From: Escherichia phage vB_EcoM_Bp10
Length of the DNA: 52,288 nt
Sequence record: MN122072
Strand: one strand, 5' to 3'
Shown here in pieces: positions 30,988-33,102 of the stretch; the first letter of the stretch is position 1; each line of letters starts with the position of its first letter. The translations under genes were made by a program, and so were the position numbers. Below the pieces are notes generated by a model, which was not told where the DNA came from, made no database searches, and saw nothing but the letters and a program-made list of their open reading frames with translations.

Positions 30988-33102
30988 ATGACTAATGAAG
31001 AATATCGTGCACTGGCTGCTGATGGCGCTCGCTTGAAAGAAGAAGGCCAAGGTTGGAAAGATGTGCTCGATACGATGGACCGTTGCAACCAGATGGTAGA
31101 TGAAATCACCTCCGCTACACAATCCGAAACTAAAACCGAAACTAACTTGGAGACTCGCAAAATGACAACTATCTCAACTCAAACTATCAAATCCGTTGTC
31201 CCTGCTATCACTGCTCTGGTATACCGTGCCAAAGAGAAACAGAATTACATGCAGCCTCAGACCTGTGCTATTGCTGCTCTTGCAATCTTTAAGATGATGA
31301 CCTCATTCACTCGTGATGATGTTGTTCCTGCAATTGCAATGGTTGAACTGGCTTCTGCTTCTATTGCTGATGCCAACCGTTATAACAACGATTTGAAAGC
31401 AATGCACTATGTTGACCCAGCTATCAACCTCATTGGTTTGGCTAAGCACTTTGGCTTCATTACCATGAACGAAGACAAGTCATTCCAACAAACTGATACA
31501 TGGGTTGAACTGGTTACAACCAAAGACACAGCAGTGCCATTCACTGAGCGTGTTACATCTGAATCTCGTCGCAAGCCTTTCGTTAAAGGTGGCAAAGTTA
31601 AGCCATCCAAAACTCTGAAAGCTGCAATCGAATTCCTGCAAGATACTGAGTACCATGTGGAGACTGAGATGGTTCGCATCATTCAGTCCATGCTTGAGCA
31701 ACGTACTTATGGTGGCTTGCAGATGCCAGAAGCAATCCAGACTGAACTCCATGTTTGGAACAATGCTGTAGCAATGATGAATCAGGATAAGCTGTATTCT
31801 GACTACTTTGCTGATAACCGTGGTCGTTTGTATCACGTAGCATGTGCTGGTCCTAACCCACAATCATCTGACTTTGCTCGTTGCTTGTATTCTCACAATG
31901 TTGAGAACATCGTTAAGAAGTTTAACGAAGATGGTTCTACTACCATTGCATACAACATGTTCATGGCAGAGCTGGAAGATATTTCTGGTGGTGAATGGTG
32001 CAGTGCTAAGCGTTTAACTTATGTTGCTCAGAATCCAGCTGGTTCACTTGCTCGCATGATGAACATGCCTAAAGCTGAACGTCCTTCTAAGCCATTCACT
32101 TATGTTCGTCTGGCTCTGGATTGGTTCAAGTTTGAGACTACAGGTGAATGCGATTCTCGTGTAGGCTTTGGCTTAGATGCTAAATGTTCTGGTACTCAAT
32201 ATCTGGCATTCATTGCTGGTAATATGGAAATGGCTCGTGCAACAGGTCTGGTTGATTCTGAGACTAAAGCATCTGACCCATACCAGTTGAGTCTTCGTGA
32301 ACTGTTGAAGCTGCTGGACAAGTCTTCAATGAAACCATCTCCTGAAATCATGGATGAATTCTTGAATCCGAAAGCTGGTCGTAAGTTTATCAAAACTCCG
32401 TACATGGCTATTCAATACGGTGGTGGTAAAGCTGCATTAACTGGTTCTTCTGACTTCATCAGCTACATGACAGAAGCGCTCCAGATTCCTATGGAGAAAG
32501 CTGAGGCATTTGCTGAACTGTGTGTGGAAGCAATCCATAACGCATTGGGTGCTAAGATTAACATGTTCATTGAGAAAGCTGCTGAGGCTGCATACAACCG
32601 TTGTGTTGAACTCAACAAAGAGTACATCACATATCGTCACACTGATGGTCAGGTTGTAATGAAGCCTTGCTTCCCATCTCGTGAAATCTGTGAGGCATTC
32701 AGCATCCGTGTTGACAGTCAAACTCGTGTTATCTTTGGTCAGATTCAGGAGAACAAGCCTTGGACCATTCGTGAATCCAATCCAACTAAAGAAGAATTCA
32801 AGCGTACTTTCGTTGTTAACTACATTCAAGGCATTGATGCACTTGTTGCTCGTACCGTTGCAGTTAAAGCTAAAGAAGCTGGTCTTCGTGGTTTTACTTC
32901 AATCCATGATTGTTTCCGTTGCTGCTTAGCTGATGCTCCACGTATGATGGAAGTTATTCGTGCAGCATATGTTGAAATCTTTGTAACCAACAATCAATTC
33001 GAGAATCTGTCTAAGCAACTTGGTGGCATTCAGATGTATCATGAGAACATCGTAACCGAAGAGCTTCTGATGAGCGAACACGCTTACTACTTCTGTCAAT
33101 AA
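30988..33102 (+). CDS. single-subunit (T7-type) DNA-dependent RNA polymerase, compact
   Basis: Motif A GLDAKCSGTQY, motif B RKFIKTPYMAIQYGGG, motif C FTSIHDCF. Start at ATG 30988 with GGAGA 5 nt upstream. Confidence 0.8.
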   Translation: MTNEEYRALAADGARLKEEGQGWKDVLDTMDRCNQMVDEITSATQSETKTETNLETRKMTTISTQTIKSVVPAITALVYRAKEKQNYMQPQTCAIAALAIFKMMTSFTRDDVVPAIAMVELASASIADANRYNNDLKAMHYVDPAINLIGLAKHFGFITMNEDKSFQQTDTWVELVTTKDTAVPFTERVTSESRRKPFVKGGKVKPSKTLKAAIEFLQDTEYHVETEMVRIIQSMLEQRTYGGLQMPEAIQTELHVWNNAVAMMNQDKLYSDYFADNRGRLYHVACAGPNPQSSDFARCLYSHNVENIVKKFNEDGSTTIAYNMFMAELEDISGGEWCSAKRLTYVAQNPAGSLARMMNMPKAERPSKPFTYVRLALDWFKFETTGECDSRVGFGLDAKCSGTQYLAFIAGNMEMARATGLVDSETKASDPYQLSLRELLKLLDKSSMKPSPEIMDEFLNPKAGRKFIKTPYMAIQYGGGKAALTGSSDFISYMTEALQIPMEKAEAFAELCVEAIHNALGAKINMFIEKAAEAAYNRCVELNKEYITYRHTDGQVVMKPCFPSREICEAFSIRVDSQTRVIFGQIQENKPWTIRESNPTKEEFKRTFVVNYIQGIDALVARTVAVKAKEAGLRGFTSIHDCFRCCLADAPRMMEVIRAAYVEIFVTNNQFENLSKQLGGIQMYHENIVTEELLMSEHAYYFCQ

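What the first reader, a model, noticed from the sequence alone, without database searches (positions are those of the whole stretch)
30988..33102. Unusually compact single-subunit RNA polymerase (about 705 aa)
T7-family motifs A, B and C are present but the protein is much shorter than the roughly 880-aa T7 enzyme, implying a reduced N-terminal promoter-handling region. A motif copy lies just upstream of its own gene, which suggests autoregulation.
Basis: partly seen in the sequence, partly recalled or inferred. Interest (0 to 1): 0.5.

Follow-up and report, generated by a model that had tools for sequence, protein, structure and literature searches.

The report
Compact T7-like RNA polymerase of a chasevirus
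The gene is the already annotated single-subunit RNA polymerase of a phiEcoM-GJ1/ST32-type E. coli phage (family Chaseviridae); it really is about a quarter shorter than the T7 enzyme, but that shortness is normal for its whole family and no such enzyme has been tested biochemically in the papers I could search.

Summary
The ORF is real: ATG 30988 to TAA 33102, 704 aa, with a GGAG ribosome-binding site. A TAG at 30913 closes the frame upstream, so no T7-length enzyme is hidden there. The window is a permuted complete Carltongylesvirus genome, and the protein is 97-99% identical to RNA polymerases annotated in GenBank.

Profile and fold comparisons place it in the T7 RNA polymerase family. All catalytic residues are invariant. 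Against T7 it lacks about 200 residues before the DxRGRxY motif, about 40 in the thumb and about 25-35 in the fingers.

The conserved family core is shorter still. It starts at ATG 31162 (646 aa), and 88 of 114 related clusters are 625-649 aa. Residues 1-58 come from a 174-bp in-frame insertion found in about 10 sibling phages. Synonymous-biased variation suggests it is translated.

The upstream motif (30910-30926) is real. It is one of 10 plus-strand copies, nearly all intergenic, and the same core recurs in Erwinia phage Y2. Earlier papers predicted such promoters computationally; none has been verified. Autoregulation is a reasonable but untested inference.

Verdict: an already known gene. 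Its minimal architecture parallels phage N4 RNAPII.

The parts
30910..30926 (+). Promoter-like motif copy (CATTAGTTGGTTGTGAT) upstream of the RNAP gene. Its TAG (30913-30915) is also the in-frame stop that bounds the ORF.
   Evidence: Conserved at the same place in flopper, SA91KD, Mangalitsa and 4HA13.
30936..30959 (+). Conserved leader block GCTACGC-N6-AATCCGTTTCA between the motif and the ribosome-binding site. Function unknown.
   Evidence: Conserved in flopper, 4HA13 and Y2. Unique in the window. No supported RNA structure.
30988..33102 (+).
   Evidence: PF00940 at E 1.3e-19 and phrog_414 at E 7e-98. 97-99% identical to annotated RNAPs.
30988..31161 (+). 174-bp in-frame insertion encoding a 58-aa N-terminal extension. 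It is flanked by a duplicated TTGGAGAC translation-initiation element.
   Evidence: Absent from flopper and SA91KD; 4HA13 has a separate 55-aa ORF at the same site. Found in only 11 records, about 10 phages. 12 of 16 variable codons change synonymously only. Low model confidence.
31162..33102 (+). Conserved family core ORF (646 aa) from the internal ATG, with GGAG at 31149-31152. This start matches flopper, ST32 and phiEcoM-GJ1.
   Evidence: Family lengths.
31162..31617 (+). Reduced N-terminal domain (core aa 1-152). It has four main helices (plus short ones), a beta-hairpin (aa 156-168 of the 704-aa protein, nt 31453-31491) and a basic loop SRRKPFVKGGKVKPSK (nt 31564-31611).
31813..31833 (+). 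DxRGRxY motif (DNRGRLY, aa 276-282), equivalent to T7 421-427.
32170..32199 (+). Motif A (GLDAKCSGTQ). D397 matches T7 D537.
32380..32424 (+). Motif B (RKFIKTPYMAIQYGG). R465/K469/M473/Y477 match T7 R627/K631/M635/Y639.
32698..32799 (+). Beta-strand region that aligns to the T7 specificity loop (T7 about 739-770). It is not shortened.
   Evidence: Alignments. Strands E571-574, E580-583 and E592-595 in the model.
32899..32919 (+). Motif C (SIHDCFR). H640/D641 match T7 H811/D812.
33152..33352 (+). 66-aa ORF co-operonic with the RNAP. It has the same TTGGAGACT initiation element and belongs to phrog_20790 (unknown function).
   Evidence: Annotated in flopper, Mangalitsa, 4HA13 and JL1.
33358..33383 (+). 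Intrinsic-terminator-like hairpin plus T-rich tail that closes the RNAP operon.
33427..33443 (+). Perfect-consensus motif copy just after the terminator.
   Evidence: The equivalent site is annotated as a promoter in SA91KD.
34286..34302 (+). Motif copy ahead of the block of small early ORFs.
   Evidence: The equivalent site is annotated as a promoter in SA91KD.
4842..4858 (+). Weaker motif copy immediately before the large terminase gene (4854-6899).
19351..19367 (+). Motif copy between the 1241-aa virion protein gene and the baseplate hub gene.
37545..37561 (+). Intergenic motif copy.
41462..41478 (+). Intergenic motif copy.
41603..41619 (+). Motif copy in the same gene-poor gap.
43571..43587 (+). 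Intergenic motif copy.
51681..51697 (+). Motif copy after the DNA polymerase gene, ahead of the exonuclease, packaging and structural genes.
30780..34013 (.). Predicted direct terminal repeat, placed by homology only. The left end TTAAATACGGTCCC matches the starts of the Mangalitsa and 4HA13 records. The right end is taken from Mangalitsa's 3234-bp PhageTerm repeat. The RNAP operon lies inside it.
   Evidence: A repeat was shown experimentally in PYps23T (2339 bp; PMC8762354). Both RNAP copies are annotated in the Y2 record.

Best explanation
This is the phage-encoded single-subunit (T7-type) RNA polymerase of a Carltongylesvirus (Chaseviridae, Cleopatravirinae). It is a naturally minimised member of the T7 RNAP family.

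Architecture:
- It keeps the complete palm and fingers catalytic core and a full-length specificity-loop region.
- Its N-terminal domain is about 150 residues instead of about 316. It has four main helices (plus short ones), a beta-hairpin that aligns with the T7 intercalating hairpin, and a basic loop.
- The thumb is about 40 residues shorter.
- It lacks a 25-35-residue fingers insertion.

In this phage and about 10 siblings, a 174-bp in-frame insertion adds a 58-residue N-terminal extension that appears to be translated. The ancestral internal start (646 aa) keeps its own ribosome-binding site, so a shorter isoform may also be made.

Inferred mechanism: the enzyme recognises the conserved plus-strand motif (consensus about TCTGAAACATTAGTTGGATGTGAA) found in about 10 mostly intergenic sites, and transcribes the unidirectional gene blocks behind them.

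The RNAP gene, a 66-aa ORF and a terminator form one small operon. It sits inside the long terminal repeat, so there are two copies per virion DNA. It is preceded by one motif copy. If the motif is the promoter, this gives positive feedback on polymerase synthesis.

Shown here: family membership, fold, catalytic residues, the deletion map, the start-codon structure, and the motif statistics and conservation. Inferred: that the motif is this enzyme's promoter, the feedback loop, and whether the enzyme works alone on double-stranded DNA.
For: Identity and context:
- Megablast to 62 phage records, mostly E. coli, Erwinia and Yersinia chaseviruses, with RNAP annotated.
- tblastn gives 97-99% identity to the 2KOFFS, JL1 and Mangalitsa RNAPs.

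Family and fold:
- PF00940 at E 1.3e-19 and phrog_414 at E 7e-98.
- Profile against PDB: T7 RNAP at E 1.9e-18, profile positions 164-612 aligned to T7 317-850.
- hhalign: probability 98%, residues 211-665 aligned to T7 317-836.
- AF2 model with pLDDT 88.4 and pTM 0.81.
- Foldseek top hits are T7 RNAP at E 1e-19.
- The BFVD model of the phiEcoM-GJ1 RNAP (648 aa) matches at TM 0.94.

Activity:
- Catalytic residues are invariant in 56 sequences.
- Substitutions between sibling phages are mostly synonymous, for example 96 synonymous and 37 non-synonymous codon differences against TH33.

Compaction:
- DxRGRxY / motif A / motif C lie at 218/339/583 in the core against 421/537/812 in T7.
- The thumb and fingers gaps are visible.
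- 88 of 114 homologue clusters are 625-649 aa; the median DxRGRxY position is 217.

No missing piece elsewhere: tblastn with the N-terminal parts of five longer RNAPs finds nothing outside the gene itself.

Start codons.

Motif:
- 9 matches against 0.24 expected, all on the + strand.
- 10 strong + strand copies and none comparable on the - strand.
- Copies lie in gaps between genes.
- The same core occurs at 8 intergenic sites in Erwinia phage Y2.
- The specificity-loop region is nearly identical in Y2 and 4HA13.
- Equivalent sites are annotated as phiEcoM-GJ1-type promoters in SA91KD.
- Consensus promoters were also proposed for PP101 (PMC6989608).
Against: - No experiment links the motif to this polymerase. 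ICTV 2022 says chasevirus promoters are not yet identified.
- The AT-rich recognition loop of T7 (residues 93-101) has no identifiable counterpart.
- The N4 RNAPII precedent shows that a similarly truncated enzyme needs cofactors.
- The simple scan found no sigma-70-like + strand promoter between the predicted genome end and the RNAP start. How transcription of the polymerase gene is first started is unexplained.
- The motif copy at the RNAP gene deviates from the consensus at two positions.
Confidence: 0.8

Rival explanations
1. The enzyme works like N4 RNAPII rather than like T7 RNAP. With its truncated thumb and N-terminal domain it cannot open double-stranded promoters alone. It would need phage cofactors, such as a single-stranded-DNA-binding recruiter or the co-operonic 66-aa protein, and the conserved motif would be bound wholly or partly by that cofactor.
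Against: The region aligning to the T7 specificity loop is full length and highly conserved. The motif is long (17-24 bp) and sequence-specific, unlike the short AT-rich -7 to +2 promoter of N4 RNAPII. Similarity to T7 RNAP is stronger and covers more of the protein than similarity to N4 RNAPII. The enzyme is one polypeptide.
Confidence: 0.15
2. The functional enzyme here is only the 646-aa protein from ATG 31162. On this view the 30988 start is an annotation artefact of an in-frame insertion in the leader and is not used.
For: The 646-aa start is the one conserved across genera (MTTI[ST]TQT...). It keeps its own GGAG. The extension is missing from most relatives, matches no family and is modelled with low confidence.
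Against: ATG 30988 has a well-spaced GGAG. The 174 bp stay open and in frame in all carriers examined, while both other frames are full of stops. 12 of 16 variable codons across five phages change synonymously only, the same pattern as the core.
Confidence: 0.2
3. The repeated motif is not the promoter of this polymerase. It could be a host-RNAP promoter, a processing site or a regulator-binding site, in which case its presence upstream of the RNAP gene says nothing about autoregulation.
For: There are no experimental data. The bootstrap problem exists: no other promoter is seen upstream of the left-end RNAP copy.
Against: The motif has no resemblance to sigma-70 -35/-10 elements by my inspection. 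Its strict + strand orientation, intergenic placement before gene blocks, a length typical of T7-type promoters, and its conservation together with the specificity-loop region in Y2 all fit a phage-RNAP promoter.
Confidence: 0.15

Closest known systems
RNA polymerase of Escherichia phage phiEcoM-GJ1 (gp01, 648 aa) and of other Carltongylesvirus phages (ST32, flopper, Mangalitsa, JL1, 2KOFFS)
   Same: The same gene. It is 92-99% identical, sits at the same genome position (first gene at the left end, inside the terminal repeat, after nrdB in permuted assemblies), has the same upstream motif and the same downstream 66-aa ORF.
   Different: The only difference is the 58-aa N-terminal extension. 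Mangalitsa, JL1, 2KOFFS, the TH phages and SKA49 share it; phiEcoM-GJ1, ST32 and flopper lack it.
T7 RNA polymerase (883 aa; PDB 1CEZ, 1QLN, 3E2E)
   Same: The same fold and catalytic machinery: DxRGRxY, motifs A, B and C, a conserved aromatic C-terminal tail, and a region aligning to the specificity loop. The presumed logic is also shared: a roughly 20-bp promoter repeated before unidirectional gene blocks.
   Different: Only about 15% identical. It has about 200 fewer residues before DxRGRxY, with nothing matching T7 1-125 and hence no identifiable AT-rich recognition loop. The thumb is about 40 residues shorter and the fingers insertion (T7 about 586-620) is absent. The host phage is a myovirus, and the gene lies in a 2.3-3.2-kb terminal repeat.
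Bacteriophage N4 RNAPII (gp15 269 aa + gp16 404 aa = 673 aa; PDB 6DT7)
   Same: [quoted passage not shown]
   Different: N4 RNAPII is a heterodimer. It binds single-stranded DNA, uses a short AT-rich promoter and needs gp1 and gp2. The chasevirus enzyme is one chain and is associated with a long conserved motif. Sequence similarity to N4 RNAPII is weaker than to T7.
RNA polymerases of the sister subfamily Nefertitivirinae (Aeromonas phages pAh6-C 843 aa, BUCT696 889 aa; Shewanella phage Spp001 781 aa)
   Same: Clear homologues at about 34% identity, with the same thumb deletion and the same C-terminal AYYF tail.
   Different: They carry about 190-240 extra N-terminal residues. These have no counterpart in this genome and no Pfam RPOL_N hit.

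Membership tests
T7-like single-subunit DNA-dependent RNA polymerase (Pfam PF00940 family) | Significant profile match to the family model | tested here: met
   PF00940 scores 70.8 bits against a cutoff of 22. phrog_414 at E 7e-98. Family profile against T7 RNAP chains at E 1.9e-18. hhalign probability 98%.
T7-like single-subunit DNA-dependent RNA polymerase (Pfam PF00940 family) | Catalytic residues: the two metal-binding aspartates (T7 D537, D812), motif B K631/Y639, and the DxRGRxY motif | tested here: met
   D397, D641, K469, Y477 and D276-Y282 are invariant in 56 sequences and align to the T7 residues.
T7-like single-subunit DNA-dependent RNA polymerase (Pfam PF00940 family) | Right-hand polymerase fold resembling T7 RNAP | tested here: met
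   AF2 model with pLDDT 88.4. Foldseek against PDB puts T7 RNAP first at E 1e-19, TM 0.56 normalised to the query.
T7-like single-subunit DNA-dependent RNA polymerase (Pfam PF00940 family) | Full T7-type N-terminal domain (Pfam RPOL_N; AT-rich recognition loop, intercalating hairpin, subdomain H) | tested here: inconclusive
T7-like single-subunit DNA-dependent RNA polymerase (Pfam PF00940 family) | Promoter-specific transcription of double-stranded DNA by the single polypeptide | not testable with these tools
   The evidence is indirect only: a conserved, oriented, intergenic motif.
Chaseviridae / Carltongylesvirus RNA polymerase | High identity to the RNAP of classified members, with conserved genome context | tested here: met
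   97-99% identical to the Mangalitsa, JL1 and 2KOFFS proteins. The DNA is 94-96.5% identical over the locus to JL1, flopper and others. The layout of nrdB, RNAP, small ORFs and a terminal-repeat position is the same.
N4 RNAPII-type minimal heterodimeric RNAP | Two separate subunits (gp15-like and gp16-like) | tested here: not met
   One uninterrupted ORF covers both parts.
N4 RNAPII-type minimal heterodimeric RNAP | Truncated thumb and truncated N-terminal domain | tested here: met
   Deletion map. The N4 description is in PMC4496689.
N4 RNAPII-type minimal heterodimeric RNAP | Dependence on gp1/gp2-type cofactors and single-stranded templates | not testable with these tools
   I did not search the window for gp1 or gp2 homologues. 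Biochemistry is needed.

The most novel reading that the evidence does not exclude
The 631-648-aa chasevirus core enzyme may be the smallest natural single-chain T7-family RNA polymerase that still recognises a long, specific double-stranded promoter without cofactors. It would do this with about half of the T7 N-terminal domain, no AT-rich recognition loop and a stub thumb. It would also drive its own gene from a promoter inside the terminal repeat. If so, it would define the minimal promoter-binding module of this polymerase family and give a compact orthogonal expression enzyme with a known candidate promoter.
Probability: 0.35. Interest if true: 0.55.

Novelty: already known. Interest (0 to 1): 0.3.

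Why it matters
The gene itself is not new. The T7-like polymerase is a hallmark of the Chaseviridae and is annotated in dozens of genomes.

In the papers I could search, two things are missing: a biochemical test of the enzyme, and experimental identification of its promoter.

A single-chain T7-type polymerase about 27% smaller than T7, with a defined 17-24-bp candidate promoter, would help in two ways:
- It would be a compact orthogonal transcription module.
- It would show which parts of the T7 N-terminal domain and thumb are dispensable for promoter recognition, the switch from initiation to elongation, and processivity over operons longer than 10 kb.

The deletion map and motif catalogue given here make that experiment straightforward.

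Tried and rejected
- **Longer upstream start or a hidden full-length enzyme.** Rejected. TAG at 30913-30915 closes the frame, and the predicted genome end lies at about 30780.
- **Split enzyme with the missing N-terminal part encoded elsewhere.** tblastn with the N-terminal 331-456 residues of the T7, Xp10, HTVC019P, BUCT696 and pAh6-C RNAPs found nothing in the window outside the RNAP gene.
- **The 58-aa extension as a homologue of the separate 55-aa ORF at the same site in 4HA13.** No similarity. It has no PHROG family and no standalone copies in phage genomes.
- **A structured 5' leader that could mediate translational autoregulation.** RNAalifold gives -1.2 kcal/mol with no covariation, and the single-sequence z-score is -0.38. 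Not supported.
- **A sigma-70 promoter upstream of the RNAP gene.** No + strand site between 30780 and 30988, and the region's total count equals the shuffle expectation.
- **Rfam families in the window.** Only one tRNA.
- **The original phiEcoM-GJ1 paper (PMC2223254).** It could not be read. What it says about promoters is taken second-hand from the SA91KD annotation and from citing papers.
- **Literature searches for characterised or 'compact' chasevirus RNAPs.** Nothing found.
- **Residue-level structural superposition on T7 RNAP.** Not possible, because model coordinates are not exposed to the scripting tool.
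Full report
**What the window is.** The 4-kb stretch around the finding matches 62 phage records by megablast. 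The best are Escherichia phages JL1 (96.5%), Ecp_YSF, flopper, MLP1, Mangalitsa and ST32, followed by Yersinia and Erwinia phages. These belong to Chaseviridae, subfamily Cleopatravirinae, genus Carltongylesvirus. The window is 52,288 bp, close to the size of those genomes without the second terminal repeat. Nearly all long ORFs are on the + strand. The gene order is replication genes, terminase, portal, sheath, baseplate, lysis, nrdB, RNAP and then small ORFs. This is the chasevirus map, circularly permuted.

**The ORF and its start.**
- The frame is open from TTG 30916 to TAA 33102, 728 aa. The codon before it, 30913-30915, is TAG, so no longer enzyme can be encoded upstream.
- ATG 30988 has GGAG at 30978-30981, 6 nt upstream. 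It gives 704 aa, the same call as for Mangalitsa and JL1.
- A second in-frame ATG at 31162 has GGAG at 31149-31152. It gives 646 aa. This is the start annotated in flopper and ST32; phiEcoM-GJ1 gp01 is annotated at 648 aa. It is conserved as MTTI(S/T)TQT in Sabourvirus 4HA13 and as MTNSNVVKSVVP in Erwinia phage Y2.

**The 58-aa extension.**
- A DNA alignment shows why there are two starts. In flopper, the element TTGGAGAC is followed directly by the ATG of the 646-aa protein.
- In the window and in Mangalitsa, 174 bp are inserted in frame between two copies of TTGGAGAC. In 4HA13 a separate 55-aa ORF with its own stop sits at the same site.
- The extension occurs in only 11 phage records, about 10 phages. 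All are Carltongylesvirus, and it is always attached to the RNAP gene.
- It has no PHROG family and no similarity to the 4HA13 ORF.
- Across five carriers, 16 of the 58 codons vary. Twelve of them vary only synonymously. Both other frames are full of stops.
- I therefore take the 704-aa protein as real in this lineage. The ancestral 646-aa start is retained and could give a second isoform.
- AlphaFold models residues 1-60 with low confidence: two helices at pLDDT about 60 and a linker below 50. Everything from about residue 61 onward is confident.

**Family, fold and activity.**
- Pfam RNA_pol (PF00940) matches at E 1.3e-19 and phrog_414 'RNA polymerase' at E 7e-98.
- The single sequence hits T7 RNAP only weakly (E 0.005).
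- A profile of 56 family members hits T7 RNAP chains at E 1.9e-18, aligning profile positions 164-612 to T7 317-850.
- hhalign gives 98% probability for residues 211-665 against T7 317-836.
- The AF2 model (pLDDT 88.4, pTM 0.81) finds T7 RNAP first in the PDB at E 1e-19, followed by mitochondrial RNAPs.
- It matches the BFVD model of the phiEcoM-GJ1 RNAP at TM 0.94.
- Invariant columns in the family alignment include the DxRGRxY motif (D276, R278, R280, Y282), D397, R465, K469, M473, Y477, H640 and D641. These align with T7 D421-Y427, D537, R627, K631, M635, Y639, H811 and D812.
- Substitutions between sibling phages are mostly synonymous.
- Nothing suggests an inactive protein.

**How compact, and where.** The table gives landmark positions.

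| Enzyme | DxRGRxY | Motif A Asp | Motif C Asp | Length (aa) |
|---|---|---|---|---|
| T7 | 421 | 537 | 812 | 883 |
| This phage, conserved core | 218 | 339 | 583 | 646 |
| This phage, with the extension | 276 | 397 | 641 | 704 |
| Xp10 | 332 | 450 | 684 | 746 |
| HTVC019P | 390 | 509 | 744 | 814 |

- About 200 of the 237 missing residues lie before DxRGRxY.
- The alignments show three losses:
  - T7 1-316 corresponds to about 150 residues.
  - A gap of about 40 residues lies in the thumb (T7 about 352-392).
  - A gap of 25-35 residues lies in the fingers (T7 about 586-620).
- The segment aligning to the T7 specificity loop is not shortened.
- Modelled alone (pLDDT 87.7), the N-terminal domain has four main helices (plus short ones), a beta-hairpin and a conserved basic loop (SRRKPFVKGGKVKPSK).
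- In a MAFFT alignment the hairpin lines up with the region of the T7 intercalating hairpin. The RR of the basic loop is invariant across all 11 sequences, including T7 and Xp10. At this level of identity that is suggestive only.
- No counterpart of T7 residues 1-125 can be identified. That stretch includes the AT-rich recognition loop at 93-101, a position taken from established knowledge of T7 RNAP.
- No separate gene supplies the missing part.

**Is that unusual?** Against T7, yes. Against its own relatives, no.
- Of 114 homologue clusters found in public genomes and metagenomes, 88 are 625-649 aa. The median DxRGRxY position is 217. Only one cluster, the window's own, is 704 aa.
- Compact forms persist down to about 30% identity.
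- The sister subfamily Nefertitivirinae has long enzymes: pAh6-C 843 aa, BUCT696 889 aa and Spp001 781 aa. Their 190-240 extra N-terminal residues have no Pfam RPOL_N hit.
- Other viral single-subunit RNAPs in BFVD are mostly 730-900 aa, with a few at 599-699.
- The chasevirus core has the same two truncations and is slightly smaller, but it is a single chain.
- In the held library I found no paper that characterises a chasevirus RNAP or comments on its size.

**The motif and the autoregulation idea.**
- CATTAGTTGGATGTGAA with up to 3 mismatches occurs 9 times against 0.24 expected, always on the + strand.
- A PWM built with flanks recovers these plus a tenth copy at 4842, 12 nt before the large terminase gene. 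The best - strand scores are far lower.
- Most copies lie in gaps between genes. One (51681) is inside the 3' end of a 90-aa ORF, and two (4842, 41603) overlap small 61-62-aa ORFs.
- Copies precede the RNAP, the early small ORFs, several middle-gene blocks, the terminase and the baseplate hub. One follows the DNA polymerase gene.
- The extended consensus is about TCTGAAACATTAGTTGGATGTGAA.
- The same core, C(A/T)TTAGTTGGATGTGA, is found at eight intergenic sites in Erwinia phage Y2. Y2's RNAP is 70% identical, and its specificity-loop region is almost unchanged.
- The SA91KD GenBank record annotates the equivalents of the 33427 and 34286 copies as promoters 'similar to promoter of phiEcoM-GJ1 (Jamalludeen et al. 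2008)'.
- Eight consensus promoters were hypothesised for phage PP101 (PMC6989608). The motif is therefore a previously proposed, still unverified, phage promoter.
- The copy at 30910-30926 deviates at two positions. It is conserved in flopper, SA91KD, Mangalitsa and 4HA13. Y2 has a weaker variant closer to its ATG.
- The layout is: motif (30910), conserved leader block (30936-30959), RNAP, 66-aa ORF (33152-33352), terminator-like hairpin (33358-33373), and then the next, perfect motif copy (33427).
- If the motif is the promoter, the polymerase transcribes its own gene. That is positive feedback rather than regulation in any more specific sense.
- The conserved leader shows no supported RNA structure.

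**Genome-end context.**
- The Mangalitsa and 4HA13 records begin with TTAAA(A)TACGGTCCC. This corresponds to window position about 30780.
- Both records carry PhageTerm-predicted direct terminal repeats, of 3234 and 3120 bp. Each contains the RNAP gene.
- A 2339-bp repeat was demonstrated experimentally for Yersinia phage PYps23T (PMC8762354).
- The Y2 record shows both RNAP copies, gp01 and gp91.
- So the RNAP operon is present twice per virion DNA. The left copy has only about 210 bp of DNA upstream.
- The simple scan finds no sigma-70-like + strand site there. How the first polymerase is produced therefore remains open, and this is the main weakness of a purely self-driven model.

**Verdict.** The item is an already known, annotated gene, and its compaction is a family trait with a described parallel in N4 RNAPII. 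Its value is as a clean, testable case of a minimal single-chain T7-type polymerase with a candidate promoter.

Noticed in passing
window 30360-30605 and 33829-34082: The palindromic box AATATTG-NN-ACAATATT gives 12 strand-hits against 0.27 expected. All but one hit lie in the two non-coding stretches flanking the RNAP operon, next to both predicted terminal-repeat boundaries. Three tandem 26-bp repeats at 30566-30654 contain box-like units. Function unknown; it could be an operator, an origin or a packaging-related element.
   Followed up: partly
window 30936-30959: The block GCTACGC-N6-AATCCGTTTCA lies between the promoter-like motif and the RNAP ribosome-binding site. It is conserved across genera (flopper, 4HA13, Y2) and unique in the window. 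No RNA structure is supported.
   Followed up: partly
L017 (Pseudomonas brenneri CP122540.1, 3123141-3145039) and L016: A 632-aa compact RNAP homologue (P0099, 38% identity) lies in a bacterial chromosome. On one side are baseplate, tail-fibre and lysozyme genes; on the other, small ORFs. A tyrosine integrase sits next to the host ahpC gene. This looks like an integrated chasevirus-like prophage, although the ICTV profile describes Chaseviridae as lytic. Homologues were also reported from Hafnia alvei and Pseudomonas laurylsulfatiphila assemblies.
   Followed up: partly
window 33152-33352: A conserved 66-aa ORF (phrog_20790, unknown function) lies directly after the RNAP. It has the same TTGGAGACT initiation element, sits inside the terminal repeat and is closed by a terminator-like hairpin at 33358-33373. 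It is a candidate polymerase partner or host-takeover protein, but that is pure speculation.
   Followed up: no
window 45019-45115: A single tRNA-Leu (anticodon CAG) gene on the + strand. The presence of a tRNA gene is reported to vary among related Yersinia phages.
   Followed up: no
window 30780-30988: The simple scan finds no sigma-70-like + strand promoter between the predicted left genome end and the RNAP start codon. How the polymerase gene is first transcribed after infection is unexplained.
   Followed up: partly
L002 (SA91KD) about 660-790; L001 (flopper) 3379: Public annotations of this one gene disagree on its start: 617, 646, 648, 704 and 724 aa in different records. The causes are the 174-bp insertion and, in SA91KD, small differences around the ancestral start.
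   Followed up: yes
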